From Escherichia coli (GTDB lineage: Bacteria; Pseudomonadota; Gammaproteobacteria; Enterobacterales; Enterobacteriaceae), in NCBI RefSeq assembly GCF_013315695.1, contig NZ_CP054353.1: a stretch of 64,000 bases of DNA; one strand, 5' to 3'. Each line of letters opens with the position of its first letter. Position 1 is the stretch's first letter. A model generated the notes under the pieces. That model was not told the DNA's origin, did no database searches, and saw only the letters and a list, made by a program, of their open reading frames with translations. The position numbers were made by a program, and so were the translations under genes. Below, piece by piece: positions 12,372 through 46,575 of this stretch.

Positions 12372-12539
12372 GCCGACAGGAACACCACAACCTCAAAAAC
12401 GCTACAAAGATGCCCACGGAGCACTCGTTACTGTCGAAAGCGTGTCTCACAACCGAGTGACGTTTTATCGCGACGGGTATCAATCGCCATGCGTACAACC
12501 GCTGGCGCGCTTCATGAAGGAGTTCGCGGAGGTTAACAA

Positions 12540-13607: not shown

Positions 13608-13794
13608 CTCAATTAATACCCCTCGCCTTACGTCCGCACTTCAATTAATCGAGCAAGCAGCGGCTGTCCTGGTTGCTGTCAGTCTTTCGGCTGAAGAAAT
13701 GGACGCTGCTGATGTCGTGGATGCGATTAAAGCGTGCTCATCTTTGGTTAACGATGCCCGTGCCGAGCTGGTAATTCTTGGGGGTGAAAAATGA
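13600..13794 (+). CDS. small hypothetical protein
   Basis: ATG at 13600 overlaps the upstream stop (ATGAATAA); translation MNNSINTPRLTSALQLIEQAAAVL... Confidence 0.4.
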   Translation: MNNSINTPRLTSALQLIEQAAAVLVAVSLSAEEMDAADVVDAIKACSSLVNDARAELVILGGEK

Positions 13795-14054
13795 ATATCA
13801 ACTTAATTTATCGTCATCCGTGTGAGCTGGAAATTGAATCATTGCTGGGGCGTGAAGAGCCATATCCAGACTCATTCACTCCCGCAGATTGCGCGACTGA
13901 ACGGCTTACCAGAGCGCGCACAGGTCTGGTTCATGTGATGAATGAGATTGTTCCCTCGGTGGGAGGGGAACAGGCGACAGTAATCAATAGCTGGCTACAA
14001 AAAGTTACCTCCCTGATAGATATCGGTTTAATCGATGTGGAGAGTGCGAAATGA
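13791..14054 (+). CDS. small hypothetical protein
   Basis: 87-aa ORF with start overlapping the upstream stop. Confidence 0.4.
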   Translation: MNINLIYRHPCELEIESLLGREEPYPDSFTPADCATERLTRARTGLVHVMNEIVPSVGGEQATVINSWLQKVTSLIDIGLIDVESAK

Positions 14055-14272
14055 CCAACATCCAGCTCATTGAAGCGCAATGTCGCATCGAACAGGTTCA
14101 GACTGTTTTAGGGTTCTGGCTTGAAGGGGCCAGCCCCAGCAACAGAGACAAGTTAATGATTGGCGCGGTTATGTCACTGCTCAATGGCGTACCAGAAGCT
14201 ATTCAGGAAGCGGACGAATTGTTGGGCAAATATGAGTTACAGAATCATTCAGGCGAGGCGAAACATGAATAA
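14051..14272 (+). CDS. small hypothetical protein
   Basis: 73-aa ORF with start overlapping the upstream stop. Confidence 0.4.
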   Translation: MTNIQLIEAQCRIEQVQTVLGFWLEGASPSNRDKLMIGAVMSLLNGVPEAIQEADELLGKYELQNHSGEAKHE

Positions 14273-14867
14273 TTTCTTAACTTTCCATGCAGAAGCAACG
14301 CCTGACGGCGTAAACATCATGTACCGCAGCAACGATGGCATGACAGAACGCGTTGAGGCCGTCTCATATATTGATGCCGTAAATCGTCTGGATGCCGGGG
14401 ATTATGACGATAAACCAGATGAAGGTATGTCAATACATCTCGCTATTGCCGATGGCGGCAACCAGGGATATTTCGATTACACATCACAGCATAACGTCAT
14501 TATGTGGAGATGGCTGATCGCAACAGTATTCATGCTGGAAATGAGAGAGGAAAACGGCACTGTCAGCATCATTGATGATACTGGCAATCCTTCCGAAGTG
14601 GCTGTTTATTCCAACGGCATCGTCGCCATGCCGCTGTATCCAGTAGCAGAGCGCCTCGCTATGGCAAACAACATTGAGGGCGCGATGATAGAACGTTTTG
14701 GCATCGAGTCTGGCACAGAACGCGCCATCATTTTCTACAGAGCCATGATGGATGTGGAACAAGGAGCACTGACTCCATTTGGTCGTGAAACGCTTGCTGA
14801 ACTTCACAACAGCTTTATAGCTGAACTGAATGAAAACGGCATGCCAGCGGAACCAGTGACGCACTGA
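14265..14867 (+). CDS. hypothetical protein
   Basis: Internal ATG at 14265 in an ATGAATAA overlap with the upstream stop; ~200 aa; the track ORF start at 14160 is probably an extension. Confidence 0.45.
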   Translation: MNNFLTFHAEATPDGVNIMYRSNDGMTERVEAVSYIDAVNRLDAGDYDDKPDEGMSIHLAIADGGNQGYFDYTSQHNVIMWRWLIATVFMLEMREENGTVSIIDDTGNPSEVAVYSNGIVAMPLYPVAERLAMANNIEGAMIERFGIESGTERAIIFYRAMMDVEQGALTPFGRETLAELHNSFIAELNENGMPAEPVTH

Positions 14868-14877
14868 GGATGGAGCC

Positions 14878-15219
14878 ATGATTACTAAAAATTTCCGACT
14901 GAATGCGCTGGCAAATAAGTATGCGTCGGCACTGTATAACCACATTACCTCCACCAGCGGCGGGGACTATTTCATGGTTGATGCGGACGGCGAGGCCGTA
15001 CGTGTGGAAATCGTCAATGGAGTAAAAGGCGTTCGCAGCCTGATCGATAGCTACACACTGGCAGCCATGAAAGTGTTCTACCCGCAGTGGGAAACCGTGG
15101 GGATCGAGCTTCTTGAGCGTTGCGTCACTAAGGACGGATTGACTGACGTCGGGCGTGAGATATGGCAAAGCATGGTTAATGACATGGGCGCAACTGTAGC
15201 GGGAGGTTCTCATGCGTGA
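14878..15219 (+). CDS. hypothetical protein
   Basis: 113-aa ORF in the same operon. Confidence 0.4.
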   Translation: MITKNFRLNALANKYASALYNHITSTSGGDYFMVDADGEAVRVEIVNGVKGVRSLIDSYTLAAMKVFYPQWETVGIELLERCVTKDGLTDVGREIWQSMVNDMGATVAGGSHA

Positions 15220-15583
15220 AAATGCAGAAATGGCGCTTAGCTCCGCAATCGGAGAGCAGGTGGCAAAGATTGCTGGTGCTGTGTGGATTCATAACCTTCA
15301 TTCTACTGGTGAAGAGAAAATGGCAATTCAGACGCCAGAGGGACGCACCATTACTACATCTCTGAAGCCGTCAGATGTTTGTGATCTGATTTGCGCATTC
15401 ATGTACCCAGCAATGAGGACTGTCCACGGCGATAAGTGGAAACTTGCGACAACCGCTGAATTTGATATGTGGCTAAACAATGATGGCATGCTGACTGATT
15501 ACGGAATAACCAAGTGGCAGATGCTGGTTAGCCATATCGCAAACGCTATAGACCACGTGGGGTACGGTGATGCGAAACATTGA
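15212..15583 (+). CDS. hypothetical protein
   Basis: 123-aa ORF overlapping both neighbours. Confidence 0.4.
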   Translation: MRENAEMALSSAIGEQVAKIAGAVWIHNLHSTGEEKMAIQTPEGRTITTSLKPSDVCDLICAFMYPAMRTVHGDKWKLATTAEFDMWLNNDGMLTDYGITKWQMLVSHIANAIDHVGYGDAKH

Positions 15584-18326
15584 TCTTATCCGTCAGGTTA
15601 TCAGTGCGTCTGAAAACAACTGGCCTCATGTGCTGGGCTGCCTGAACATAAATGTCCCTGACTCTCCGCGCCGTCATGCTCCCTGCCCTGCATGTGGGGG
15701 CAAAGATCGATTCCGGTTCGATGACAACGGGCGCGGTAGCTTCATCTGTAATCAGTGCGGCGCTGGTGATGGGCTGGATTTAATTAAACGCGTAAATAAC
15801 TGCGACACAACAGAGGCGGCGCTTCTTGCCGCTGATGTTCTGGGTATTGATTACCGGACAACGGAAACACCAGAAGCCACCAGCCAGAAACGGGAACAAC
15901 TGGAAACCGAGCGCCAGCGACGCGAACAGGAGCGCCTGAAAAGGGCAGAGAAGGACGAACAACAAAGACGGGATACGTTTTCCCGTCAGTTTGATGACAT
16001 GCGCAGAAAGGCTGTAAACGGCAAATCTGATTATCTGGTTGCGAAAGGGGTAGGTGATTTTACATTCCCCGTGTTGCCCGATGGATCTCTGTTGCTGGCG
16101 CTGGTGGATAAATCCGGCGCAGTCACAGCAGCACAGACTATTACATCACATGGTGAAAAAAGACTCCTGACAGGTTCAGCAAAGCGGGGGGCATATCACG
16201 CCATAAACGCGCCAGAAACAACACAGAGCATCTTAATCGCAGAAGGGCTGGCAACGGCATTATCTGCCCATTTAATTCGTCCAGAGGCGCTGACAGTGGC
16301 GGCGATTGATGCCGGGAACCTGTTATATGTCGCCCAGGTACTGCGGGATAAATTTCCTTCAGCACAAATCATCATTGCTGCGGATAACGACCACAGCGAA
16401 GGAAGACAAAACACGGGGAGAATAGCAGCAGAAAAAGCAGCTTTATCTGTTTCTGGATGGGTGGCATTACCCCCGACAGATCACAAAGCAGACTGGAATG
16501 ATTACCACCAAAAACACGGCATTAAATGCGCCACAGAAGCGTTCAATAAGTCAATGTACCAACCACAGGGTAATGGCGTGAAACATGAGCCACAGACCAT
16601 TGAGGGAAGCGATTTTAAGGTTATGGATACCGACCCACTGAAACCAAGAATAGAAAGCCGCGAGGATGGTATTTATTGGGTATCTCCGAGAGCTGACAGC
16701 CAGAGTGGAGAAATCATCAATAACGAAAGCTGGTTATGTTCTCCGTTAAGCGTTATCGGTACTGGCAGAGACGATAAAGACCAGTATCTCATTCTTCGCT
16801 GGCTGTCGTTTGGTTCTGAAACGCCGACAACCGCTGCCATTCCACTGGCTGATATTGGTGAACGTGAAGGATGGCGCACACTTAAAGCTGGTGGGGTAAA
16901 TGTCACGACCAAAAGCAGCCTCAGAGCAATACTGGCAGACTGGCTACAACGCAGTGGCTCTCGTGAATTGTGGCGTGTTGCTCATGCCACTGGCTGGCAA
17001 TGCGGAGCGTACATCATGCCTGATGGGGAAATCATCGGAACACCTGAAAATCCTGTGCTGTTCAGCGGGAGAAGCTCAGCCGCAGCCGGATATACCGTCT
17101 CAGGGAGCGCGAAAAGCTGGCGTGATAACGTGGCGCGTCTGGCCTTTGGTAACTATTCAATGATGACCGGGATCGGCGCAGCACTGGCAGCGCCATTGAT
17201 TGGGCTGGTGGGCGCTGACGGGTTCGGCATTCATTTCTATGAGCAGTCGAGCGCAGGTAAGACCACCACGGCAAACGTGGCGAGCAGCTTATACGGCAAC
17301 CCTGATTTACTGCGGCTGACGTGGTACGGAACCGCGCTGGGGCTGGCAAATGAGGCCGCCGCCCACAATGACGGACTAATGCCGCTTGATGAAGTTGGTC
17401 AGGGCGCTGATCCTGTCAGCGTTTCACAGTCTGCCTATGCGTTATTTAACGGTGTAGGGAAACTGCAAGGCGCTAAAGATGGTGGAAACCGGGATCTAAA
17501 ACGCTGGCGTACAGTGGCAATCAGCACCGGAGAAATGGATTTAGAAACATTTATCGCTACTTCCGGGCGAAAAACCAAAGCCGGGCAACTGGTGCGACTG
17601 CTGAATATTCCGTTGAGTAAAGCAGTACGCTTTCACGATTACCAGAACGGAAAACAGCACGCAGACGCACTGAAAGACGCTTACCAGCATCACCACGGCG
17701 CGTCCGGGCGTGAGTGGATTAAATGGCTGGCAGACCACCAGCAACAGGCTATTAAAACCGTTCGTGACTGCGAAAGCAGATGGAGAAGCCTGATCCCATC
17801 CGATTATGGTGAGCAGGTTCACCGTGTAGCCGCGCGATTTGCCATTCTGGAGGCCGCATTGTTGTTAGGCGAGGTTGTAACAGGCTGGGATGCTCAGACA
17901 TGCCGTGATGCGATACAGCACAGCTATAACGCATGGTTGCGCGAGTTCGGCACAGGTAACAAAGAGCATCAGCAGATTATTGAACAAACGGAGGCATTTC
18001 TTAATGCCTATGGGCTTAGCCGTTTTGCACCATTTCCATACAGCCCGGCAGATTTGCCCATCAAAGATTTAGCCGGATACCGTCAGCGTGGAGAACATGA
18101 CGAAAGCCCAATGATTTTCTACACATTCCCGGCCACATTTGAAAAGGAGATCGCATGTGGTTTCAACGCAAAACAGTTTGCTGAAGTGTTGAAAAAAGCC
18201 GGGATGCTAACCCCACCAAACAGCGGTCGTGGATACCAAAGAAAATCACCACGTATTCAGGGACGACAAATAAACGTTTATGTACTCAATTACCAGCCAG
18301 GAGATTATAACTCATCTGAAGAATGA
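15567..18326 (+). CDS. P4-alpha-like primase/helicase (zinc-binding primase domain + Toprim + NTPase)
   Basis: 919-aa ORF; N-terminal zinc motif CPACGGKDRFRFDDNGRGSFICNQCG; acidic Toprim-like stretch IIIAADNDHSEGRQNTG; nucleotide-binding-like motif later; followed by an iteron array. Confidence 0.8.
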   Translation: MMRNIDLIRQVISASENNWPHVLGCLNINVPDSPRRHAPCPACGGKDRFRFDDNGRGSFICNQCGAGDGLDLIKRVNNCDTTEAALLAADVLGIDYRTTETPEATSQKREQLETERQRREQERLKRAEKDEQQRRDTFSRQFDDMRRKAVNGKSDYLVAKGVGDFTFPVLPDGSLLLALVDKSGAVTAAQTITSHGEKRLLTGSAKRGAYHAINAPETTQSILIAEGLATALSAHLIRPEALTVAAIDAGNLLYVAQVLRDKFPSAQIIIAADNDHSEGRQNTGRIAAEKAALSVSGWVALPPTDHKADWNDYHQKHGIKCATEAFNKSMYQPQGNGVKHEPQTIEGSDFKVMDTDPLKPRIESREDGIYWVSPRADSQSGEIINNESWLCSPLSVIGTGRDDKDQYLILRWLSFGSETPTTAAIPLADIGEREGWRTLKAGGVNVTTKSSLRAILADWLQRSGSRELWRVAHATGWQCGAYIMPDGEIIGTPENPVLFSGRSSAAAGYTVSGSAKSWRDNVARLAFGNYSMMTGIGAALAAPLIGLVGADGFGIHFYEQSSAGKTTTANVASSLYGNPDLLRLTWYGTALGLANEAAAHNDGLMPLDEVGQGADPVSVSQSAYALFNGVGKLQGAKDGGNRDLKRWRTVAISTGEMDLETFIATSGRKTKAGQLVRLLNIPLSKAVRFHDYQNGKQHADALKDAYQHHHGASGREWIKWLADHQQQAIKTVRDCESRWRSLIPSDYGEQVHRVAARFAILEAALLLGEVVTGWDAQTCRDAIQHSYNAWLREFGTGNKEHQQIIEQTEAFLNAYGLSRFAPFPYSPADLPIKDLAGYRQRGEHDESPMIFYTFPATFEKEIACGFNAKQFAEVLKKAGMLTPPNSGRGYQRKSPRIQGRQINVYVLNYQPGDYNSSEE

Positions 18327-18351
18327 GCTTCTTCATGTGCGTAGAAAAGGT

Positions 18352-18452
18352 GTTGGTTCAGTTGGTTCAATTTGTAAAGAGTATTGTTTTATAAGGATTT
18401 TATTCTTTTTATTGAACCAACACTGAACCAACAACACGGTATTTTGAACCAA
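18352..18452 (+). repeat. Iteron array 1 (candidate replication origin/crr-like site)
   Basis: GTTGGTTCA x2 direct (18352-18369), AT-rich spacer, then TGAACCAAC x3 inverted (18413-18452). Confidence 0.6.
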
Positions 18453-18774
18453 CACAATGTGACTGAATTGATGCGCACAACACCTGGCTGGCATCAGAGA
18501 GTGTTTTACGAGACTTTCGTAAAATCCTGTGTACAAGGGCGTGACGTTTTTGAAAGTGAGCACTACGAAATTTTCGTAGTTCAGAAAACAGCCTCTGAGA
18601 AGTTGTTATGCCTGTTCAGCAAACCATCCGCATAGCTGATCGCGAATCAAATTACCAATGGAGCCAGAAGCAAGGGCAGAACTGAAAAGCGCCTGCCGTG
18701 AAGAGTAATGCGACACCATAAATATAGTTTTTAGAGTCCATAAAAAACCTGTCAAAACCTGACACACAGAACGA

Positions 18775-18806
18775 TGCCACCAGCTACTGAGCGGTGGCAT
18801 TTTTTT
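18775..18806 (+). terminator. Rho-independent terminator
   Basis: GC hairpin GCCACCAGCTACTGAGCGGTGGC followed by ATTTTTTTG. Confidence 0.6.
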
Positions 18807-18901
18807 GTGCTATTTGTTTCATATTTTGCAATTACGATGATGAATATTGCGATTTGTGAAACTATAATAACTGTTGTTTTATACAGTTCTAAGGGGGCGT
18901 T

Positions 18902-19063
18902 ATGGCTATTTCAGTAAAGCCGGTATTGATAAGTGAGAAGCAAATGGAAGCGATAAAGAAAATTCAGGAAGAGCAGCGTAAAAAATCAGGAATTGGAGTA
19001 GCGCCAACTCTGCATGAAATTGCACGAGGGTTAATAGATAAGGCGCTGGCAGGCTGTATGTGA
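18902..19063 (+). CDS. small hypothetical protein (53 aa), possible first gene of the downstream operon
   Basis: ATG at 18902, translation MAISVKPVLISEKQMEAIKKIQEEQRKK...; below the ORF-track size cutoff. Confidence 0.3.
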   Translation: MAISVKPVLISEKQMEAIKKIQEEQRKKSGIGVAPTLHEIARGLIDKALAGCM

Positions 19064-19079
19064 AAATGGATGGCATCGC

Positions 19080-19541
19080 ATGGAACTAAAATTTATTGAT
19101 AACCCTGTGCGATTACAGGCCTTTCTTAACGAGCCAGGCAATACCGAAAATATTGTTGAGCCGGGGCACACGTACTACATCAAGCCTGATGCGGTATATC
19201 TCGGCATCTACGAAGGATTAGTGCTGGCTGGCGTTCATGAAGTGCGTAACTTCTGGCATAGCGTTGTTGAATGCCATGCGGTGTACGACCCCGGATTCCG
19301 TGGTGAATATGCACTGCAAGGACATCGATTATTCTGCAAATGGCTTCTCGAAAACTCACCATTCCTTAACAGCATTACCATGGTTCCTGACACCACGAAA
19401 TACGGACGGGCAATTATCCGTTTGCTTGGCGCTACCCGTGTTGGTCATCTTGATGATGCTTATATCAGATGTGGTAAACCCGTCGGCGTAACGCTTTATC
19501 AGTTAACTCGGCAACAATATAAGGAATTCAGCGAATGTTAA
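19080..19541 (+). CDS. hypothetical protein, first gene of coupled operon
   Basis: 153-aa ORF; its stop overlaps the next start. Confidence 0.5.
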   Translation: MELKFIDNPVRLQAFLNEPGNTENIVEPGHTYYIKPDAVYLGIYEGLVLAGVHEVRNFWHSVVECHAVYDPGFRGEYALQGHRLFCKWLLENSPFLNSITMVPDTTKYGRAIIRLLGATRVGHLDDAYIRCGKPVGVTLYQLTRQQYKEFSEC

Positions 19542-20212
19542 TTACCCATATAGCTTATAAACATCTCAATCGTGCCGTATACGAAAAAGGCGGTGATGGT
19601 GGTGCCTCTAAAGCTCAGGCGAAGGCCCAGCAGCAGGCAATTGATTTGCAGCGCGAGCAGTGGAATACGGTGATGAATAATCTCAAGCCGTATGCAGAAG
19701 TCGGATTGCCTGCTTTACAACAACTACAAGGACTGATGACTCTGGAAGGGCAGAATAAAGCCGCGAATGATTTCTTTGGTTCTGGTTTATATAAAACACA
19801 GGCAGATCAGGCCCGTTATCAGAACCTTGTCTCAGCAGAAGCTACCGGGGGGCTTGGCTCAACAGCTACCAGTAACCAGTTATCTTCCATTGCGCCCATG
19901 CTTTATAACAATTGGCTCAGTGGGCAAATGCAAAATTATGGAAACCTGCTAAATGTCGGGATGAATGCGGCATCAGGGCAGGCAACAGCAGGGCAAAACT
20001 ACGCCAATAATACCGGACAACTCTTGCAGGGGCTTGGCGCTATTCGTGCAGGTCAGGCGCAGCAGCCATCCAGTCTTGCGCGTGGTATTGGTGGGGCGGC
20101 ATCAGGCGCTTTAGCGGGTGCGCAACTTGGTTCCGTTGTTCCGGGTATAGGTAATGTCGCCGGGGCTATTGGTGGTGGGCTTATTGGTCTTGTTGGGGGG
20201 CTTGGATTCTAA
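19535..20212 (+). CDS. hypothetical protein with Gly/Ala-rich hydrophobic C-terminus (possible podovirus ejection-protein-like)
   Basis: 225-aa ORF; C-terminal GGAASGALAGAQLGSVVPGIGNVAGAIGGGLIGLVGGLGF glycine-zipper-like segment; TAATG overlap with the next gene. Confidence 0.5.
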   Translation: MLITHIAYKHLNRAVYEKGGDGGASKAQAKAQQQAIDLQREQWNTVMNNLKPYAEVGLPALQQLQGLMTLEGQNKAANDFFGSGLYKTQADQARYQNLVSAEATGGLGSTATSNQLSSIAPMLYNNWLSGQMQNYGNLLNVGMNAASGQATAGQNYANNTGQLLQGLGAIRAGQAQQPSSLARGIGGAASGALAGAQLGSVVPGIGNVAGAIGGGLIGLVGGLGF

Positions 20213-21625
20213 TGGCGACATGGCAACTTGGCGGGCTGCCTAGCATGGCACCGCAAAATGATAATGCTCCTCGTTCTTCCGTTCCTCAGCCTGTGCAGTA
20301 TCAGCAGCAGCCAAACGTAGGTTTAATGGCGCTACAGGGGCTAAGAGGCGTTGCTGAGATTAATCAGCAGGCACGTCAACAACAGCGTAAAGCAGAGTTT
20401 CAGAAAGCATATGCCGGGGCTTTTGAGTCTGGAGACAGAAACAAAATGCGCAGTCTTATTTCTGAGTATCCAGAAGAATTTGAAAGCGTTCAGAAAGGGA
20501 TGGGCTTTATTGATGACGACCAGAGAAATTCTATTGGTCATCTTGCGACTAGTGCTCAAATCGCATCTTCGCTCGGAACTGGGGCATTTGGAAAATTCAT
20601 AGCAGATAACGAAGATGAAATGCGTCGTTTGGGAATTTCTCCTGAGTCTGTTGCCGAAATGCATGTTAATGATCCACAGGGATTCCAGCGGCTTGCTGGT
20701 AGTATGGCACTGTTTTCTCTCGGTCATGAGAAGTACTTCGATATCAAAGATCGAATGGAAGGTCGGGATATTGAGCGTGGCAAGTTGGCAGAGACGATCC
20801 GCAGCAATCAAGCCGGAGAAGCACTTCAGGCGAGAGGGCAGGATATTAGCCGAGCAAATGCGTTAACGTCAGCATATGCACCAACAGCCGCAATGCAGAA
20901 TTACAATCAATACGCGCAAATGTTAAAGGCGGATCCAGAGGGGGCTGCGGCATTTGCGGCAGCGGCTGGAATTAATACAAACGCCAAAAAATTAATGAGT
21001 GTTAGAGAAAACGATGATGGCACTGTCACAAAATACTACACAGACGGAAGTGAAGAGCAGGGAAAACTAAACCAGCCAATATCTGGAGATGGGTTTCGTC
21101 CAATAGCTTTGCCAACAGCCCAAAAGATCATGGAAAAGTCGCCAGAAGGGGCTAAAAAAGCTGCTGGATTTGCATACAGAGTTAGGGATGCTCTTGATTC
21201 AATAGATACACTGAAAGACCAGCTTAGCCCACAGCGAGTGGCGATCATTAATAATGCTTTGGGTAATGGGACGCTGGCTAACTTAACGCTCAGCCCAACA
21301 GAGCAGCAATACGTTGTTAATGCTAATGACGCAATAATGGCAATACTCCGTCAGGAAACAGGGGCATCTATCCTACCAGCTGAAATGTCCAAATATTATC
21401 AAATGTATTTCCCTCAGCCTGGTGATTCCACAAAAACCATTGATACCAAGCGTAGGAAGATGGAAAACCAGTTCAATTCGCTGAAAGCTGCTTCTGGTCG
21501 AGCTTATGATGCTTTGCGGGTTATTTCAGCAGTTGACAGAGGAACTTCTTCTTCGTCGCAGACATTGCCGCAATCTGAGCAGGTATCACAGCCAGCAGTA
21601 ATTTTTCTTCACTATGGGGTGATTA
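20212..21625 (+). pseudogene. coupled-operon gene 3, 3' end interrupted by IS1 (ancestral product ~474 aa)
   Basis: Open frame runs into IS1 at 21626; rejoining the split target duplication gives native end ...HYGVING-stop, overlapping the ATG of the 701-aa gene now at 45798. Confidence 0.6.
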
Positions 21626-39723: not shown

Positions 39724-40083
39724 ATGAGAATGACCAGCCGCAAAAAAGAGATACTTAGCTACTTTGAACCGGATAACCTCGAATGGGTGACTGGTGAGAT
39801 TGGTGCGCCGCCGTTCGATGTGTCGGGTGTGGCCTACCTGCTTCATGGCATGGTGTCGTTCGATAAGCGTCACCAGCTCGAATCAACCCGGCGCACACTG
39901 GAAAGCATGGTTGCTGGTGGACTGCTTGAGCGGGTGACAGTGTATGAATCGCGCCAGATACGGCGCGGCGGTGATACTAACGCAACGGTCGTGCGCTACG
40001 GTTTACCCGGTCAGTGCGCTGTTATGCGCGATACTGGCGGCGCTGACAACGCAATATCAGGTGAATACATGCGGGTCAGTTAA
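39724..40083 (+). CDS. hypothetical protein
   Basis: 119-aa ORF with normal GC content. Confidence 0.4.
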   Translation: MRMTSRKKEILSYFEPDNLEWVTGEIGAPPFDVSGVAYLLHGMVSFDKRHQLESTRRTLESMVAGGLLERVTVYESRQIRRGGDTNATVVRYGLPGQCAVMRDTGGADNAISGEYMRVS

Positions 40084-40618
40084 TAGCCTGCAATCTGTCG
40101 TTGATGCGGCTCAGGTCGTAAACCCGGCGTTCAATATCCAGCATCAGGAAATTGTGGATCTCGGCCTGCTCAGGATTATCAGACTCTCTGGCCTGTAATA
40201 GCAATTCATTGTAACCATGCAAGCCGCCTGAGTTTTCCGCCGGGGTGGTGCCTTTCCCACGCAGGCAGCTAATGGGCTGATTACTCGTATCGTGTGTTTG
40301 CTTCTCCAGCACAATGACGCAATCCCACCAGTCGCCAAAGTCATACGTGTAAACCAGCTTGTCACCCTCATTCTGGAGCGCCGCCCATAGTGGCGTGATT
40401 GCCGCGTTACCCATGCTTTCATCCTCACCCCATACGCGATACTCGCTACCTGGATCACCTTTACGCCCTTTCTCGAACATATACAGGTGTTCGTCATTCC
40501 AGCCAAAAGCTAACTGGATCACGGCATGAAGTTTACTAAAGGGGATTTGCTCTGGAACCAGCACACGCCGCCATATAGGTGGTTTGCTGTCTCGGATGGT
40601 TATCTTTAGCTGGTACAT
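40076..40618 (-). CDS. pRiA4b ORF-3-like family protein
   Basis: 180-aa ORF MYQLKITIRDSKPPIWRRVLVP...; N-terminal motif recalled as typical of the pRiA4b ORF-3-like (PF07929) family. Confidence 0.5.
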   Translation of the reverse strand: MYQLKITIRDSKPPIWRRVLVPEQIPFSKLHAVIQLAFGWNDEHLYMFEKGRKGDPGSEYRVWGEDESMGNAAITPLWAALQNEGDKLVYTYDFGDWWDCVIVLEKQTHDTSNQPISCLRGKGTTPAENSGGLHGYNELLLQARESDNPEQAEIHNFLMLDIERRVYDLSRINDRLQAIN

Positions 40619-41221: not shown

Positions 41222-41503
41222 CTACCTTTGCCTCTTGCCGCCATTTAACCGGAAGGCGTTACCGTTCGGTTGCGCTATCCCCATGCGGTGTTGCGTTTCG
41301 GTAACAGCTTTATGCAGGTCGCCAAATTCCTCAACCTTCACGGGCGGGCGCTTCACGTTCTCCAGACACGTTTCACGGCGGCGCTTTATCCATTCCCGAT
41401 CATCGTCCTCGGTGCATAACAGCATGACTTCCATCCATCGTGCGGCAGCTCTCCGGTATAGCCCTTTTGACTCCAGCTCTTCAGCTTTCCTGTCCCTTAT
41501 CAT
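41222..41503 (-). CDS. PerC-family transcriptional activator
   Basis: 93-aa ORF MIRDRKAEELESKGLYRRAAARWMEVMLLC..., resembles PerC/Pch proteins of prophage islands. Confidence 0.6.
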   Translation of the reverse strand: MIRDRKAEELESKGLYRRAAARWMEVMLLCTEDDDREWIKRRRETCLENVKRPPVKVEEFGDLHKAVTETQHRMGIAQPNGNAFRLNGGKRQR

Positions 41504-41780: not shown

Positions 41781-42236
41781 ATGGTCTTTGCAATGAGCAA
41801 ATCTAATCTGGTCGCGTTCCGCATCCCATCTGAATTGCAGGATGAGTTTAATCGGTCTGTTCTCGCTTCTGGAGGAGATAAAACCTCCTGGCTTGTTGAT
41901 GCGATTCGCATGAAGCTGGGGCAGCCGGAAAAGTCTATTGATTCACGAATGCTTGGGCTGGTGGAGCGCATGGAAAAAGCCGCTGCGTCGCTTATTGCCG
42001 GAAAGCCGAACATCCCACCAAAACCATATAACGAAACGGCAGTTATAAAGATCATTGCCGATACCATCCAACAGGGATTTGATAATGGGCGTGTGATAGC
42101 TGAACGGATCAATGAAGCAGGCTATCAAACAAAAGCTGGTAAAGCGTGGGATAAAGATATTTACAGCGCGTGGAAGCGTCAGGGAAGCAATGCTGAAAAG
42201 CTAAAAGCAGTGATTGATTGTAAGGTCAGCGTATAA
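41781..42236 (+). CDS. putative ribbon-helix-helix DNA-binding protein adjacent to the iteron array
   Basis: 151-aa ORF; N-terminal SNLVAFRIPSELQDEFNRSVLASGGDKTSWLVDAIRMKL fits an RHH (Arc/MetJ/CopG-like) pattern. Confidence 0.45.
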   Translation: MVFAMSKSNLVAFRIPSELQDEFNRSVLASGGDKTSWLVDAIRMKLGQPEKSIDSRMLGLVERMEKAAASLIAGKPNIPPKPYNETAVIKIIADTIQQGFDNGRVIAERINEAGYQTKAGKAWDKDIYSAWKRQGSNAEKLKAVIDCKVSV

Positions 42237-42315
42237 ACATGAGTGCCCATTGGAAAGTTGCTTGGGCCAATACCTTTATACACCAGCAGGTAGTGACGAT
42301 AGGTGAGGATCAGAT

Positions 42316-42537
42316 ATGAAAGGCAGAACGCCACACATTGAACATCAAGCCAACCACTTCCCTGATGTTCGCAATGAGATGATTGCCATTCGCGGTGATA
42401 TGCACGGATTGGAGCGTCGAATTATTGATAAGATTGATGAAAATAGAGATAAGGCCAGTGAAAATCAAAAGTGGATCATCGGCCTGTTGATTTTATCAAT
42501 TCTTATCCCGCTACTTATCGCATTGGTCACAAAATGA
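42316..42537 (+). CDS. small tail-anchored membrane protein
   Basis: 73-aa ORF with C-terminal hydrophobic helix WIIGLLILSILIPLLIALV. Confidence 0.35.
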   Translation: MKGRTPHIEHQANHFPDVRNEMIAIRGDMHGLERRIIDKIDENRDKASENQKWIIGLLILSILIPLLIALVTK

Positions 42538-43058
42538 ATATCCAATGTGTATGCTGTCGATGCTACGCGCGCGTACTTGTCGCAAAATATCAGGCAAAGG
42601 CCAGATTCAGAAAGTCGTGATAACCACCAGCACAACATGAGAGGTCATGTAACGCGATTTATCACACCAGATACATGTGATTGGTGTACCCGCATAAAAC
42701 ATCGTCATAGCGCGTCCTGTGCGCATATACGCCGATAATCAACACATCACCACCACTCTGTCTCATGTAGAGAACAGTTTTATGGTATCCCCCGCCATCG
42801 TGTGCGTACTGGTCGGACGCAGTTGCAAAAAATTTTGCAACTGATACCCCTCGCGCGCGTACTGGTCACGAAATTGGTGTTTTGCTGTGGCAGTGATATC
42901 AGAAAAATCTTCCTGTTTCACATAAAGCGGATATGCGCGTACTGTAACGGCCCCATCAACTGGGAGCGGACTTGAAATCCCGACCCAAGCTATGTACCAA
43001 ATGCCATGTCTTGGATATATGATGATTGCCATTCTAAACAACGCTAAAGGGGGTTGGT

Positions 43059-43673
43059 GTGAGCAGAAAAGATACTAAAGAATTGCTAACTATCTGCATG
43101 GTGTACTTTTCAATTTATTTTTGTGCATACATGATAGTCCCAGATGAGTTTGAACATGGCAGTATTATTTATTCCATAACATTCTATTTTTTAGAGCTAA
43201 CACCAATTTTGGCTATCCTTTTGGGAATACATATTTATTTTTCCTTAAAAAAAGAATCGACTAATTGGGAGAAGGTATGGAGAGACAGAGGATTTCTAAC
43301 ATCACCTAAAGATGATGCATATGAGAGTGATTTTTCTGACTTTATAACAAACTACTACTCCAGCGAACAATTCAAAAATAGACTGTCTGATGTTTGGGAA
43401 ACAGCAATGTATTCCATAGGGATTATATTATTGATACTTACTGGTATTGCTCAATATGTTTTTAACATTGACTTATCATTAAATCCTGAAAATTTAATAT
43501 CGCCATTGATTTTTGGTGAGATATTGATCTTCTCATTCGGAATTTTCTTGAGTGTTGTTCTCTGCTCATTATGCAAGCTACTGACTAACAGGTATCCGGG
43601 TGAAGCAAGGAGAGCAAGAAAGGCAAATCCATATTATCTTTTATTTCCTAATGGAGACAGCAGAGATATCTAA
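43059..43673 (+). CDS. AT-rich multi-pass membrane protein (candidate exclusion/accessory moron)
   Basis: 204-aa ORF with about four hydrophobic helices, strongly A/T-biased codons, GTG start. Confidence 0.5.
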   Translation: MSRKDTKELLTICMVYFSIYFCAYMIVPDEFEHGSIIYSITFYFLELTPILAILLGIHIYFSLKKESTNWEKVWRDRGFLTSPKDDAYESDFSDFITNYYSSEQFKNRLSDVWETAMYSIGIILLILTGIAQYVFNIDLSLNPENLISPLIFGEILIFSFGIFLSVVLCSLCKLLTNRYPGEARRARKANPYYLLFPNGDSRDI

Positions 43674-43692
43674 GCCATCCATGGCTAACCAG

Positions 43693-45798
43693 TTATTGAG
43701 CTTCTTTTTGTGATGCCTGTGCGACTCTGGTGAGCGATTGTGTGACCGTACTGATCGCTCTGTCATATGCTGTGCTACCTTTTGGCGTATTTGCCAGACG
43801 TAACAAGGCATTTCGTATAACAGGGCTTTCGTATGCCTTCGCTGCTCCGCCTACGGCACCAGCAGCAGGAACAACAAACGCAGCCGTTTTTAGCATCCCC
43901 GCTAATACTGCTGCGTTTATGATGCCACCACCAACTAACAATCCATAAAGCTGCTGACCATTTAAGTTTTGAACGTTCGCTTTTGCCGCGTGTCTTGTAT
44001 CGTTGAGGTATTTAATAACGCCGTCCAGTTCCTTTCCATGTACGCCTTTAAAGAAAGTTGCTGATTGCTTCCTGTTCCGGTGTAACGCATTAATAAACTT
44101 CTCAACACTGATATTTCCAGACGGATCAGTCGCCTTATCTACAGCATTCTGAACTATGGCTGCTCGTGCGTTTTGCCTACCATTGTCATCCAGAAGCCTG
44201 TAAAGCTGAGAACGTTCTGATGGGCTTTGGCTAAAAACGAGTTTTGTTACATCCTCAGGCGTGGCCTTACCGCTGGCTATTGCCTTTTGAACGCGCGTTC
44301 TTCCCATCATGTCATTGAATTTAGACCATGACCGATCAACCCTTGCCATATTAATGGCTTCGTCTGCTCCAAGATTTTTGGCTACGGCTTTTTTCATATC
44401 CGCCGTATATGCCTTGTAGATAATATCGCTGGCTTTCTGGAGCGTATCTTTATCAACAGTGTCAGATGACGCCATAAATCGCTTTCGAAGATCGGTTCTG
44501 TTTTCCCTCGCCAGACGCAGGTCATTTGGTCCGCTGGTGATATCGTCTTTAAATTGCTGCAAGACTTTTACCGCGGCTCTATCCTGAGATTTGCCCGGGC
44601 GGCTTAACACGGCAATCTGATTGTCGATAGCTTTTACCGTGTTTGAGAGATCGACAGGGGTATCCCCCATAGCGTCAATTATGCGGTTATATCGCTTTCC
44701 TGCTGCCTCAATGAATTTTTGTTGCCCTTTAGTCGCAGATTCATAAAGCTGTTTATCAGAAATGCCACCCAGACCATCGCTAAATGTTCTGACTAAATTT
44801 TCTCGTGCTTGTTGTTGATTCAGCCGATTCTTACCGGTTCCAAAAAAAGGAACTCTTTCGCCTAATGTCTGAGCCTGACTCTGCATAAAGGTTTTATCTT
44901 TCAGCATGTCACTGGTCATTAACGGCAGATTTCTTTCCGATGCAAAGTTGACAGCAGCCTTTGCTTCAGGCGACATATCACCACGAACAGCCCTCGAAAC
45001 CGCACTCGCTGTATTTTCCAGCCCCTTACCAATACCACCAATGCCAGCAGAAATTACCGTTTGTAACGGATCAATATCTTCTCCACCAGCAAGGCTGGTG
45101 GCTCCCTGTAGTGCTAAATCTGTAGCTGCTGATTTTCCTATGGCACCAAGCACCGTTCCAGCCCTGCCCGCTGGTGTAAACGCCAGCGCATTAGCCAGAA
45201 ACGATGCCACGTCTTGCGGCGATAAACCCGGCTTGTTCAGAGCATAATCACCGGATGGCAGGGAAACGATAGTGTTACCCTTCTCATCCTGCCTTAATTT
45301 CGCTCCCATGCTCTGAAGAATCTTTTCCTGAGATGCGTCAGAGCCGAAAAGTTGAGACCATCGAGCTTTTAGAGCACCCATGCTGAGTGAGGTTAACTCT
45401 GGGGCAAGGTCGACATTTTGCAGTCTCTCCATCTCTGGAGTCATTCGGCTTTCGCCTGTTATAGCATCGCGCATCGCAGCCCCAAGACTGGCTCCCTGTT
45501 CTGCTGAACGCTCAAGCCCCTCTCTTTGCTGAGTAGCTAACTTTGCATACCCTGACGCAAGAGAATTATCAGATGATGTATGTTGAATATTTTGAGTTGC
45601 TGATTGGGATCGGTCTATTTCATTCGTTGATGGTAGTGGATAGGCAGCATAAAAAGCCTGCTTAGCCTGCGCTACACTTTCTCCGGCTTGCGGGGCCACG
45701 ACTTCATTGAAGTATTGCTCCTGAGCCTGCGCTTTTTGTTCTGGTGCTAACGCCTGATACTGTGGAGAGGCGATAACATCTTTCCATGCTTTAGCCAT
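43693..45798 (-). CDS. large alpha-helical protein, fourth gene of the split coupled operon (possible ejection/internal virion-like)
   Basis: 701-aa ORF; ATG 9 bp from the IS1 copy 3 boundary; the flanking 9 bp is the reverse complement of the duplication at IS1 copy 1; Gly/Ala-rich hydrophobic segment near the C-terminus. Confidence 0.6.
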   Translation of the reverse strand: MAKAWKDVIASPQYQALAPEQKAQAQEQYFNEVVAPQAGESVAQAKQAFYAAYPLPSTNEIDRSQSATQNIQHTSSDNSLASGYAKLATQQREGLERSAEQGASLGAAMRDAITGESRMTPEMERLQNVDLAPELTSLSMGALKARWSQLFGSDASQEKILQSMGAKLRQDEKGNTIVSLPSGDYALNKPGLSPQDVASFLANALAFTPAGRAGTVLGAIGKSAATDLALQGATSLAGGEDIDPLQTVISAGIGGIGKGLENTASAVSRAVRGDMSPEAKAAVNFASERNLPLMTSDMLKDKTFMQSQAQTLGERVPFFGTGKNRLNQQQARENLVRTFSDGLGGISDKQLYESATKGQQKFIEAAGKRYNRIIDAMGDTPVDLSNTVKAIDNQIAVLSRPGKSQDRAAVKVLQQFKDDITSGPNDLRLARENRTDLRKRFMASSDTVDKDTLQKASDIIYKAYTADMKKAVAKNLGADEAINMARVDRSWSKFNDMMGRTRVQKAIASGKATPEDVTKLVFSQSPSERSQLYRLLDDNGRQNARAAIVQNAVDKATDPSGNISVEKFINALHRNRKQSATFFKGVHGKELDGVIKYLNDTRHAAKANVQNLNGQQLYGLLVGGGIINAAVLAGMLKTAAFVVPAAGAVGGAAKAYESPVIRNALLRLANTPKGSTAYDRAISTVTQSLTRVAQASQKEAQ

Positions 45799-45807
45799 TA
45801 ATCACCC

Positions 45808-46575
45808 GGTGATGCTGCCAACTTACTGATTTAGTGTATGATGGTGTTTTTGAGGTGCTCCAGTGGCTTCTGTTTCTATCAGCTGTCCCTCCTGTTCAGC
45901 TACTGACGGGGTGGTGCGTAACGGCAAAAGCACCGCCGGACATCAGCGCTATCTCTGCTCTCACTGCCGTAAAACATGGCAACTGCAGTTCACTTACACC
46001 GCTTCTCAACCCGGTACGCACCAGAAAATCATTGATATGGCCATGAATGGCGTTGGATGCCGGGCAACAGCCCGCATTATGGGCGTTGGCCTCAACACGA
46101 TTTTACGTCACTTAAAAAACTCAGGCCGCAGTCGGTAACCTCGCGCATACAGCCGGGCAGTGACGTCATCGTCTGCGCGGAAATGGACGAACAGTGGGGC
46201 TATGTCGGGGCTAAATCGCGCCAGCGCTGGCTGTTTTACGCGTATGACAGGCTCCGGAAGACGGTTGTTGCGCACGTATTCGGTGAACGCACTATGGCGA
46301 CGCTGGGGCGTCTTATGAGCCTGCTGTCACCCTTTGACGTGGTGATATGGATGACGGATGGCTGGCCGCTGTATGAATCCCGCCTGAAGGGAAAGCTGCA
46401 CGTAATCAGCAAGCGATATACGCAGCGAATTGAGCGGCATAACCTGAATCTGAGGCAGCACCTGGCACGGCTGGGACGGAAGTCGCTGTCGTTCTCAAAA
46501 TCGGTGGAGCTGCATGACAAAGTCATCGGGCATTATCTGAATATAAAACACTATCAATAAGTTGGAGTCATTACC
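45808..46575 (+). mobile_element. insAB: IS1 copy 3 (768 bp, complete)
   Basis: Terminal repeats GGTGATGCTGCCAACTTACTGAT ... ATCAATAAGTTGGAGTCATTACC; InsA 45863..46138, InsB 46057..46560. Confidence 0.97.

What the first reader, a model, noticed from the sequence alone, without database searches (positions are those of the whole stretch)
43059..43673. Strongly AT-biased 204-aa polytopic membrane protein convergent on the 701-aa gene
Its codon usage is far more A/T-rich than its neighbours, indicating separate acquisition. In the reconstructed ancestral order it sits directly downstream of, and convergent with, the four-gene operon. That is the position where P22-like phages carry superinfection-exclusion genes, so this is a candidate exclusion or abortive-infection protein of unknown family.
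Basis: inference. Interest (0 to 1): 0.5.

Follow-up and report, generated by a model that had tools for sequence, protein, structure and literature searches.

The report
Divergent SieA superinfection-exclusion gene, prophage remnant
The AT-rich membrane-protein gene is a divergent, so far unannotated relative of phage P22's SieA, an inner-membrane protein that stops related phages from injecting their DNA; it survives intact in a decayed prophage of E. coli, so it belongs to a known kind of phage-defence gene and not to a new family.

Summary
A 204-codon ORF (43059-43673, +; GTG start, AAGGGGG 5 nt upstream) has GC 0.33 against 0.475 for its neighbour. It ends 19 bp from the stop of a convergent 701-aa P22-gp16-family ejection-protein gene.

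An IS1 insertion and inversion, marked by the 9-bp duplication GGGTGATTA, split gp14-gp7-gp20 (19080-21630) from gp16.

The protein is not of unknown family. It is a SieA homologue:
- Profile-profile comparison with the tested type A (P22) and type B (HS1) SieA gives 98.4% probability, E 6.5e-15.
- It carries both family motifs (YSSEQFKNRLSD, TNRYPGEARRARK).
- It has four predicted TM helices, N- and C-termini in the cytoplasm.
- Relatives in Citrobacter, Serratia and Providencia sit in the exact P22 sieA slot (mnt -> sieA -><- 16) of full P22-like prophages.

It groups, at 32-36% identity, beside the untested "type C" SieA, previously reported only from Providencia, Morganella and Proteus. 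Low GC is a trait of sieA genes generally.

The likely function is an inner-membrane block of DNA injection by P22-like phages. This is inferred, not shown. The gene is in 102 of 5,426 complete E. coli genomes, always annotated "hypothetical protein". It is a new member of a known kind, of modest interest.

The parts
43059..43673 (+). sieA-like gene: a 204-aa, four-TM inner-membrane protein of the SieA superinfection-exclusion family, in the lineage beside type C
   Evidence: ORF confirmed and annotated identically in RefSeq as 'hypothetical protein'. BLASTP vs P22 SieA: 29% over 108 aa, E 8e-8. BLASTP vs HS1 SieA: 34% over 118 aa, E 2e-9. hhalign: 99.6%, E 6.8e-24, and 98.4%, E 6.5e-15 against types A+B only. 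PHROG 7745 'SieA-like', E 4.4e-4. AF2 pLDDT 88.5. Foldseek hits to the type C reference proteins and to 'Superinfection exclusion protein A'.
43047..43053 (+). Shine-Dalgarno-like AAGGGGG, 5 nt upstream of the GTG start
   Evidence: Read directly from the sequence.
43356..43391 (+). Codons 100-111, YSSEQFKNRLSD: conserved cytoplasmic juxtamembrane motif just before TM3 (family-wide N107 100%, R108 99%, D111 95%)
   Evidence: Column conservation over 132 family members. Invariant in the alignment with P22 and HS1 SieA.
43584..43622 (+). Codons 176-188, TNRYPGEARRARK: the conserved SieA motif just after TM4, on the predicted cytoplasmic side (family-wide R178 99%, P180 98%, G181 87%, A183 86%, R187 90%)
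   Evidence: Corresponds to the FxRYPxEAxxFNK motif of Leavitt et al. 2024.
43674..43692 (.). 19-bp spacer between the convergent stop codons of the sieA-like gene and gene 16. No terminator-like hairpin was found.
   Evidence: P22 has a 22-bp spacer in the same arrangement.
43693..45798 (-). Gene 16 homologue: a 701-aa P22-gp16-family DNA-ejection protein, which in P22 is one of the two proteins where SieA-escape mutations map
   Evidence: PHROG 770, E 3.6e-159. RefSeq name 'P22-gp16 family phage DNA ejection protein'. 67% identity to phage N7 gp16 by tblastn, 65% by global alignment.
45799..45807 (.). One copy of the 9-bp IS1 target-site duplication GGGTGATTA (read on the - strand), at the start of gene 16
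45808..46575 (+). IS1 copy that separates gene 16 from the rest of the ejection-protein operon
   Evidence: InsA/InsB ORFs. 99.7-100% identical to the IS1 copies at 21626-22394, 25129-25903 and 63495-64000.
19080..21630 (+). gp14 (19080-19541), gp7 (19535-20212) and gp20 (20212-21630): the displaced first three genes of the four-gene operon. They end at the second copy of the duplication (21617-21625) and an inverted IS1.
   Evidence: PHROGs 651, 598 and 917. Collinear with gene 16 in strain 2014C-3057, and gp20 adjoins gp16 in MS1494.
41781..42236 (+). Upstream same-strand gene with a possible N-terminal ribbon-helix-helix. It sits where mnt sits in P22. The assignment is weak.
   Evidence: 27% identity over 37 aa to Serratia and P22 Mnt, E 0.001-0.01 in a tiny database. 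Pfam does not confirm it. In Citrobacter, Serratia and Providencia a clear Arc/Mnt gene precedes the sieA-like gene.
42538..43058 (+). 521-bp non-annotated region upstream of the gene. From 42557 onward it travels with the gene in other strains. It presumably holds the promoter, but no strong sigma-70 match was found.
   Evidence: Homology with strain 2014C-3057 begins at 42557. Promoter scans gave only 8-of-12 matches.

Best explanation
The ORF is the sieA gene of a decayed P22-like prophage at thrW. It encodes a four-helix inner-membrane protein with both termini and the 50-residue central loop in the cytoplasm. By homology with P22 SieA (type A) and HS1 SieA (type B), it most likely protects the cell from superinfection by P22-like podophages. 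It would do so by preventing the ejection-protein conduit (periplasmic gp20 and membrane gp16) from opening a path for DNA across the inner membrane.

The conserved core is the TM3-TM4 hairpin flanked by two near-invariant motifs, YSxExxxNRxSD and RYPGEAxxxRK, both on the predicted cytoplasmic face. This suggests that the critical contact is in or at the inner face of the membrane. That contact could be with the tip of gp16 or with a host inner-membrane partner.

Shown here: the ORF, its composition, homology, motifs, predicted topology, synteny and the IS1 rearrangement. Inferred: inner-membrane location, expression from this remnant, exclusion activity, and which phages are excluded.
For: Homology:
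- BLASTP to P22 SieA E 8e-8 and to HS1 SieA E 2e-9, as single comparisons.
- Independent PHROG 7745 'SieA-like', E 4.4e-4.
- hhalign of the clade profile against 28 SieA-family proteins: 99.6%, E 6.8e-24.
- hhalign against types A+B only: 98.4%, E 6.5e-15 over 140 columns.
- All near-invariant family residues are kept (N107, R108, D111, R178, P180, G181, A183, R187). The one exception is W152, which is F here.

Fold and topology:
- AF2 model with pLDDT 88.5 and pTM 0.74.
- Foldseek AFDB50 hits at probability 1.0 to Providencia rettgeri, P. alcalifaciens 205/92 and M. morganii KT proteins (the last two strains are the paper's type C reference strains), and to 'Superinfection exclusion protein A' of Salmonella.
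- Positive-inside rule, K+R counts: N-terminus 3, loop 28-35 0, loop 62-111 8, loop 138-147 0, C-terminus 7.

Synteny:
- P22 sieA is convergent with gene 16 across a 22-bp gap. Here the gap is 19 bp.
- Homologues at 50%, 39-40% and 33% identity in Citrobacter, Serratia fonticola and Providencia lie in mnt -> sieA-like -><- gp16-gp20-gp7, next to arc/ant/tailspike (Serratia fonticola and the second Providencia locus lack arc/ant), in full P22-like prophages.

Composition: low GC is shared by all sieA genes checked.

Integrity: the gene is intact and at least 99% identical in 101 of the 102 complete E. coli genomes that carry it.

[quoted passage not shown] Escape mutations map to gp16 and gp20. 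Types A and B, only 24% identical, give the same phenotype. P22 SieA also works in E. coli.
Against: - No experiment exists for this protein or for any type C SieA. It is only 25-34% identical to the tested proteins, and only over the C-terminal two thirds.
- The prophage is a remnant. The tailspike and the arc/ant side are gone, and the operon next door is split by IS1.
- No convincing sigma-70 promoter was found in the 521-bp upstream region, so expression is unproven.
- The protein has no hit on record in the precomputed Pfam tables that list PF26849 SIEA for other family members.
- The motif departs from the published FxRYPxEAxxFNK (T for F, ARK for FNK).
- W152, conserved in 95% of the family, is F here.
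- No sequenced phage carries this type, so its natural targets are unknown.
Confidence: 0.75

Rival explanations
1. It is a true SieA homologue but a silent or inactive relic. The gene would be carried along with the thrW island and no longer expressed or no longer protective.
For: The prophage is heavily decayed and rearranged. No strong promoter and no terminator were found. The mnt-like upstream gene is only doubtfully related to mnt. AT-rich genes in E. coli are frequent targets of H-NS silencing (general knowledge, not tested here).
Against: The reading frame is intact and at least 99% identical in 101 genomes. Every family-invariant residue but one is kept. The roughly 500 bp upstream travel with the gene even where the next gene upstream differs. 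P22 sieA has its own promoter close to the gene, and 106 bp of upstream DNA sufficed for HS1 sieA. The high identity could, however, simply reflect recent common descent.
Confidence: 0.15
2. It has the SieA fold but a different activity or target. It might exclude another class of phage, or act as a membrane-perturbing abortive-infection effector instead of an entry block.
For: The family is far wider than P22-like prophages: 197 clusters at 50% identity reach E <= 1e-3. Some members sit in contexts without P22-type genes. Another defence-type gene (Abi family) occupies the neighbouring slot in strain 2014C-3057. The N-terminal third does not align with the tested SieA types.
Against: All close relatives of this protein lie next to gene 16 in P22-like prophages. 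Types A and B, equally divergent from each other, have identical specificity and do not affect later phage growth. The only hints of a pore-forming SLATT-like domain are noise: E 0.19 (for P22 SieA itself) in NCBIfam and Foldseek E 2.9 (for this protein's model).
Confidence: 0.08
3. It is a housekeeping small membrane transporter or a chance ORF.
For: Only noise-level hits: MnhB E 0.018, DUF2162 E 0.036, a sodium/nucleoside cotransporter E 0.29.
Against: The chance of such an ORF at this composition is about 1e-7. The gene is present in only 1.9% of complete E. coli genomes and always in the prophage remnant. Homology to SieA is robust.
Confidence: 0.02

Closest known systems
SieA type C (prophages of Providencia, Morganella and Proteus; Leavitt et al. 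2024, mBio, PMC10883804)
   Same: Alignable over the full length at 32-36% identity, E 1e-28 to 1e-36. Same length class (191-201 aa vs 204). Same four-helix layout with the extra N-terminal TM. Shared lineage-specific strings: W(R/K)(D/E)RG(F/Y), YYSS..KNRxSD, CKxxTNRYPGEARRARK, PYxLxxPN. Same slot, mnt -> sieA -><- 16. Exclusive clade in the NJ tree.
   Different: The Morganellaceae proteins are 39-57% identical among themselves, while this one reaches only about a third. With the Citrobacter (50%) and Serratia fonticola (39-40%) proteins it forms a separate branch. The paper states that type C is limited to Providencia, Morganella and Proteus, and that E. coli SieAs are type A or B. Type C itself has never been tested functionally. 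I identified the paper's type C references only by strain name and length in Foldseek hits, not by locus tag.
SieA type B (E. coli HS prophage HS1, EcHS_A0321; experimentally active)
   Same: 34% identity over 118 aa across TM3-TM4 and both motifs. Has an extra N-terminal TM. Convergent with gene 16 in a thrW-integrated P22-like prophage of E. coli. Low GC, 0.363.
   Different: The N-terminal 80 residues do not align. About 24% identity overall. The C-terminal tail differs. In the tree it groups with type A, not with this protein.
SieA type A (Salmonella phage P22 SieA, 164 aa; the founding member)
   Same: 29% identity over 108 aa. The NRxxD and RYPGEA motifs. Convergent with gene 16 across a gap of about 20 bp. 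GC 0.337 vs 0.499 for gene 16.
   Different: P22 SieA has three predicted TM helices and lacks the first one. It is 40 residues shorter. It is found in isolated phages, whereas this type is found in none of 50,697 phage records.
Other inner-membrane DNA-entry blockers (HK97 gp15, T4 Imm, Tuc2009 Sie2009). Compared by mode of action only, from general knowledge and PMC10883804.
   Same: Small prophage- or phage-encoded membrane proteins that block genome entry after adsorption.
   Different: No sequence relationship was detected or expected. They target different injection machineries (tape-measure/PtsG route for HK97, T4 injection). Not tested here.

Membership tests
SieA superinfection-exclusion family (P22 SieA; PHROG 7745; Pfam PF26849 SIEA) | Significant sequence homology to experimentally characterised SieA proteins (P22 type A, HS1 type B) | tested here: met
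   BLASTP E 8e-8 and 2e-9. hhalign 98.4%, E 6.5e-15 against types A+B only and 99.6%, E 6.8e-24 against 28 members. PHROG 7745, E 4.4e-4.
SieA superinfection-exclusion family (P22 SieA; PHROG 7745; Pfam PF26849 SIEA) | Conserved motif FxRYPxEAxxFNK after the last TM helix, on the predicted cytoplasmic side | tested here: met
   LTNRYPGEARRARK at residues 175-188. The core RYPGEA and the final K are kept, F is replaced by T, and FN by AR, as in the type C proteins. The second family motif NRxSD (107-111) is also present.
SieA superinfection-exclusion family (P22 SieA; PHROG 7745; Pfam PF26849 SIEA) | Small polytopic membrane protein: three TM helices in type A, four in types B and C | tested here: met
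   Four hydrophobic segments, with charge distribution fitting N-in/C-in. AF2 helices 3-30, 36-67, 105-141 and 150-176. TMHMM itself was not available.
SieA superinfection-exclusion family (P22 SieA; PHROG 7745; Pfam PF26849 SIEA) | Location in a P22-like prophage between the homologues of genes 16 and 9, convergent with gene 16 | tested here: met
   Convergent with gene 16 across a 19-bp gap. The gene 9 side is lost in this remnant but present next to the homologues in Citrobacter, Serratia and Providencia.
SieA superinfection-exclusion family (P22 SieA; PHROG 7745; Pfam PF26849 SIEA) | Match to the Pfam model PF26849 (SIEA) | tested here: inconclusive
   The precomputed tables list PF26849 for Vibrio and some Morganella-type members but nothing for this protein or its closest relatives. 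The Pfam library behind profile_search did not report PF26849 even for a protein that has it on record, so the model could not be run here.
SieA superinfection-exclusion family (P22 SieA; PHROG 7745; Pfam PF26849 SIEA) | Inner-membrane localisation of the protein | not testable with these tools
   Needs cell fractionation of a tagged protein, as in PMC10883804.
SieA superinfection-exclusion family (P22 SieA; PHROG 7745; Pfam PF26849 SIEA) | Blocks DNA injection by P22-like phages (no K+ efflux, plating efficiency <= 1e-8), with escape through gp16/gp20 changes | not testable with these tools
   Needs plaque, K+ efflux and escape-mutant experiments.
SieA type C sensu Leavitt et al. 2024 | Clusters with the Providencia/Morganella/Proteus proteins to the exclusion of types A and B | tested here: met
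   Exclusive 8-leaf NJ clade with the Providencia and Proteus proteins. 32-36% full-length identity against 25-34% partial identity to A/B.
SieA type C sensu Leavitt et al. 2024 | Within-type similarity (Morganellaceae members are 39-57% identical) and host range limited to Providencia, Morganella and Proteus | tested here: not met
   Only about 33% identical to them, and found in E. coli, with nearest relatives in Citrobacter and Serratia. It is therefore better described as a sister branch than as type C proper.
   No PADLOC hit at E <= 1. No Pfam or NCBIfam Abi hit.

The most novel reading that the evidence does not exclude
This Enterobacteriaceae branch of the type-C lineage may not be a passive leftover. 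It could be a domesticated defence gene kept by the thrW island, possibly as a unit with the still-intact ejection-protein genes 14/7/20/16 that sit directly beside a P4-like satellite backbone. A Vibrio element shows a similar pairing: integrase-AlpA-Bro-gp20-gp16-SieA without head genes. The branch could also have an exclusion range different from types A and B, for example covering HK620-type ejection proteins that partly escape them. If so, it would give a natural handle on how SieA recognises such divergent gp16/gp20 proteins, which the 2024 study left unexplained.
Probability: 0.15. Interest if true: 0.55.

Novelty: new member of a known kind. Interest (0 to 1): 0.3.

Why it matters
The gene is annotated 'hypothetical protein' in every one of the 102 complete E. 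coli genomes that carry it. It is missed by Pfam, NCBIfam and PADLOC, and nearly missed by PHROGs. Naming it adds a predicted phage-resistance determinant to strains that include APEC, STEC and clinical isolates.

It also extends the untested type-C lineage of SieA into Escherichia, Citrobacter and Serratia. The profile search shows that the SieA family is much larger than the three published types (197 clusters at 50% identity).

For phage biology, a third or fourth very divergent SieA that can be tested against the same panel of hybrid phages would help to locate the part of SieA that recognises the gp16/gp20 conduit.

None of this changes the picture of how such systems work. It is an ordinary, well-placed member of a known family.

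Tried and rejected
- tblastn of the protein and of a type C protein against 50,697 phage records, and of the protein against 72,556 plasmids: no match.
- Pfam-A on the protein and on all 132 aligned family members: only scattered noise.
- NCBIfam and PADLOC give nothing, even for P22 SieA itself.
- Foldseek against BFVD viral models: nothing below E 0.9.
- PDB sequence search with the family profile: E >= 0.29.
- A SLATT-like pore idea rested on E 0.19 and E 2.9 hits and was dropped as noise.
- I tried to learn what PF26849 was by scanning a protein that carries it. The local Pfam library did not report it. The name SIEA came later from precomputed tables.
- Promoter and terminator scans found nothing convincing upstream of, or between, the convergent genes.
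- The three ORFs downstream of gene 16 in phage N7, which has the closest phage gp16, are not SieA homologues.
- gp16 type does not track SieA type. Serratia fonticola pairs a clade member with a P22-type gp16, so no co-variation argument can be made.
- The upstream 151-aa protein as an Mnt homologue: only a weak 37-residue match that Pfam does not confirm.
- A literature search from 2024 onward for SieA found no mechanistic work after Leavitt et al. 2024.

Full report
**1. The observation**

The ORF at 43059..43673 (+ strand, 204 aa, GTG start) is present exactly as described. RefSeq annotates the same coordinates as a 'hypothetical protein' in a genome that is 100% identical over this stretch. 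AAGGGGG lies five bases upstream of the GTG. The N-terminus aligns with homologues from other genera, so the start is credible.

The gene has GC 0.332 (GC3 0.312). This compares with 0.475 for the adjacent 701-aa gene, 0.41-0.55 for the other neighbours and 0.478 for the window. At that composition an open frame of 204 codons has a chance probability of about 1.4e-7.

Hydropathy shows four hydrophobic stretches at about 9-27, 36-60, 113-137 and 148-175. An AlphaFold2 model built on 132 family sequences (pLDDT 88.5, pTM 0.74) has long helices at 3-30, 36-67, 105-141 and 150-176.

The gene ends 19 bp from the stop codon of the convergent 701-aa gene at 43693..45798.

**2. The neighbourhood and the 'ancestral order'**

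The 701-aa protein is a P22 gp16-family DNA-ejection protein (PHROG 770, E 3.6e-159; RefSeq product name). Homologues of P22 genes 14, 7 and 20 lie 22 kb away at 19080-21630 on the other strand.

Both blocks abut IS1 copies in inverted orientation. The 9-bp sequence GGGTGATTA is present once next to each IS1 (21617-21625 and 45799-45807). Strain 2014C-3057 has the uninterrupted junction ...GGGGTGATTAATGGCT..., where gene 20 runs straight into gene 16. In strain MS1494 genes 20 and 16 are likewise contiguous.

The whole element sits at thrW (tRNA-Thr at 8784-8859), which is also the site of prophage HS1 in E. coli HS. It is a remnant. Genes 14-7-20-16 and the ORF are preceded directly by a P4-like backbone of integrase, AntA/B, ash, Icd-like and TOPRIM/DUF927 primase genes. 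No head, tail-spike, arc or ant genes remain.

**3. What the ORF is**

In P22, sieA lies immediately downstream of gene 16 and convergent with it, 22 bp away, with mnt upstream on the same strand. The ORF occupies that slot.

Several independent tests show it is a SieA homologue:
- BLASTP against P22 SieA gives 29% identity over 108 residues, E 8e-8 for the single comparison.
- BLASTP against the type B SieA of prophage HS1 gives 34% over 118 residues, E 2e-9.
- PHROG 7745, 'superinfection exclusion SieA-like', matches residues 91-186 at E 4.4e-4.
- A profile of the ORF's own clade compared with a profile of P22-type and HS1-type proteins only gives 98.4% probability, E 6.5e-15 over 140 columns.
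- Against a broader set of 28 family members the figures are 99.6% and E 6.8e-24.

The four-way alignment keeps S101, E103, N107, R108, D111, R178, Y179, P180, G181, E182, A183 and K188 invariant. Over 132 family members, N107, R108, D111, R178, P180 and R187 are at least 90% conserved. The only near-invariant position the ORF changes is W152, which is F here.

The second motif, TNRYPGEARRARK, is the FxRYPxEAxxFNK motif that Leavitt et al. single out as the most conserved part of SieA.

Foldseek of the model against AFDB50 returns, at probability 1.0:
- an identical protein;
- a Providencia rettgeri protein (E 5.7e-8);
- proteins from P. alcalifaciens 205/92 and M. morganii KT, the two strains the paper lists for its type C;
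- a Salmonella protein named 'Superinfection exclusion protein A'.

**4. Which SieA**

Leavitt et al. [quoted passage not shown] They place the E. coli and Salmonella proteins in types A or B, and type C only in Providencia, Morganella and Proteus.

The ORF aligns over its full length with these proteins:

| Source | Identity |
|---|---|
| Citrobacter freundii | 50% |
| Serratia fonticola | 39-40% |
| Providencia, Proteus and Morganella (191-201 aa) | 32-36% (E 1e-28 to 1e-36) |

Against types A and B only the C-terminal two thirds align, at 25-34%. In an NJ tree on the core columns the ORF forms an exclusive clade with the Citrobacter, Serratia fonticola and Providencia/Proteus proteins.

The Morganellaceae proteins are 39-57% identical among themselves. 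The ORF is therefore best called a sister branch of type C, found in Enterobacteriaceae and Yersiniaceae.

In Citrobacter, S. fonticola and P. rettgeri the homologue sits in the canonical arrangement inside complete-looking P22-like prophages. That arrangement is tailspike-(ant)-(arc), then mnt -> sieA-like -><- gp16-gp20-gp7.

No record among 50,697 phages or 72,556 plasmids encodes this type. A type C query also found no phage.

**5. Composition**

The AT bias is not special to this genome.

| Source | sieA GC | Gene 16 GC |
|---|---|---|
| P22 | 0.337 | 0.499 |
| HS1 | 0.363 | 0.471 |
| Citrobacter | 0.380 | 0.500 |
| Serratia | 0.363 | 0.493 |
| Providencia | 0.355 | 0.434 |

Low GC is thus a family trait, typical of morons and reinforced by the Phe/Ile/Leu/Tyr/Asn/Lys-rich composition (GC1 and GC2 are also 0.34). 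It is not evidence for a recent separate acquisition.

**6. How it most likely works**

Established for types A and B (PMC10883804):
- SieA alone is sufficient for exclusion.
- It fractionates with the inner membrane.
- It prevents DNA injection and the accompanying K+ release by P22-like phages only.
- Escape needs several changes in the C-terminal parts of gp16 and gp20.
- High multiplicity partly overcomes the block.
- P22 SieA works in E. coli against CUS-3.
- Types A and B behave identically despite 24% identity.

The authors favour direct interference with the gp20/gp16 conduit. Their alternative is occlusion of a host inner-membrane partner such as YajC.

For the present protein I infer the same mode of action. 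Its topology by the positive-inside rule is N-in and C-in. K+R counts are 3 (N-terminus), 0 (loop 28-35), 8 (loop 62-111), 0 (loop 138-147) and 7 (C-terminus). Only two acidic loops of about 8-10 residues face the periplasm.

The two near-invariant motifs flank the TM3-TM4 hairpin on the cytoplasmic face. That placement argues that the conserved functional site is within or at the inner face of the membrane, not in the periplasm. This is an inference from predicted topology. No coordinates could be inspected.

**7. What is uncertain**

- Neither this protein nor any type C SieA has been tested.
- Expression from the remnant is unproven. No strong sigma-70 match lies in the 521-bp upstream region. 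However, homology with strain 2014C-3057 starts about 500 bp upstream of the gene, even though the next gene upstream differs there.
- The upstream 151-aa ORF resembles Mnt only weakly.
- The gene is intact and at least 99% identical in 101 of the 102 complete E. coli genomes that carry it. This is compatible with selection but also with recent common descent.

**8. Comparison with the known, and novelty**

This is a member of the SieA family by every feature that could be tested here: sequence, motifs, topology and genomic slot. The two biochemical or phenotypic features cannot be tested with these tools.

It fails the narrower definition of type C on similarity level and host range, so I file it as a sister branch.

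It is missed by Pfam (as run here), NCBIfam and PADLOC, which also miss P22 SieA itself. A Pfam family PF26849 'SIEA' exists in the precomputed tables for relatives but has no hit on record for this protein.

The profile search shows 197 clusters at 50% identity with E <= 1e-3. These include Vibrio prophage-like elements and loci without P22-type genes. The family is therefore considerably wider than the published three types.

Verdict: a real feature, correctly spotted, and a new member of a known kind. Interest is modest (0.3).

Noticed in passing
window 21617-22394 and 45799-46575 (also IS1 copies at 25129-25903 and 63495-64000): At least four IS1 copies, one cut by the window end. The pair at 21.6 kb and 45.8 kb is inverted and each copy is flanked by one copy of the 9-bp duplication GGGTGATTA. 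The roughly 24-kb segment between them is therefore inverted relative to strains MS1494 and 2014C-3057. In isolate AF3 (NZ_OZ547117) the IS1 next to gene 16 joins instead to the integrase/thrW side, a different rearrangement.
   Followed up: yes
window 9025-21630: Intact genes 14, 7, 20 (and 16) of a P22-like phage lie directly after a P4-like satellite backbone, with no head or tail genes. The backbone has an integrase at 9025-10239, isrK at 12921-12998, C4 antisense RNA at 13061-13148 and a TOPRIM/DUF927 primase at 15567-18326. The same junction occurs in other strains. This could be tandem integration at thrW followed by deletion, or retention of the ejection-protein/SieA module by the island. 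It was not resolved.
   Followed up: partly
L012 (Vibrio proteolyticus) 1-13736: A SieA-family gene (PF26849) follows gp20 and gp16 on the same strand, not convergent. It lies in a roughly 12-kb element with integrase, AlpA, Bro-N, a small terminase, pRha and antiterminator Q, but no head genes. This is a satellite-like context that parallels the E. coli island.
   Followed up: no
window 42184-42556 vs L011 12087-13499: The slot between the RHH-like gene and the DNA that travels with the sieA-like gene is variable. The window has a 73-aa tail-anchored membrane protein (42316-42537; PHROG 6324, weak holin-like hit). Strain 2014C-3057 has a 325-aa 'Abi family protein' on the other strand. This looks like a small moron or defence swap site.
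   Followed up: partly
L013 and L014/L015: Distant SieA-family members (165-173 aa, weak PF26849) occur away from P22-type genes. One is near a T7_gp14-like internal virion protein, an nSTAND-type ATPase and an SNase gene. One is in a purely chromosomal context between CHRD-domain and aminotransferase genes. The family may not be restricted to P22-like prophages.
   Followed up: no
window 42763-43041 (- strand): A 92-codon ORF (TTG start) divergent from the sieA-like gene fills much of the 'intergenic' 521 bp. It is not annotated in RefSeq and has only a weak PHROG 30481 hit (E 0.0036). It could be a chance ORF or a small unannotated gene.
   Followed up: no
window 40076-40618 and 41222-41503 (- strand): A pRiA4b ORF-3 family protein and a PerC-family transcriptional regulator lie just beyond the RHH-like gene. 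PerC-like regulators on prophage remnants can affect virulence gene expression in pathogenic E. coli (general knowledge).
   Followed up: no
AFDB entry A0A606EZ92: A protein 100% identical to this ORF is labelled Salmonella enterica serovar Kentucky in UniProt/AFDB, and the nr name is 'MULTISPECIES'. Either the island has crossed species or the source record is mislabelled.
   Followed up: no
window 31177-31377 (- strand): Rfam IS009 RNA (193 bits), between the ecp/yagU region and the rest of the inverted segment.
   Followed up: no
The 3' end of this gp16 type is present in 594 complete E. coli genomes, but only 102 carry the sieA-like gene. Most prophages with this gp16 type therefore have something else, or nothing, in the sieA slot. 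Phage N7, for example, has three unrelated ORFs there.
   Followed up: partly
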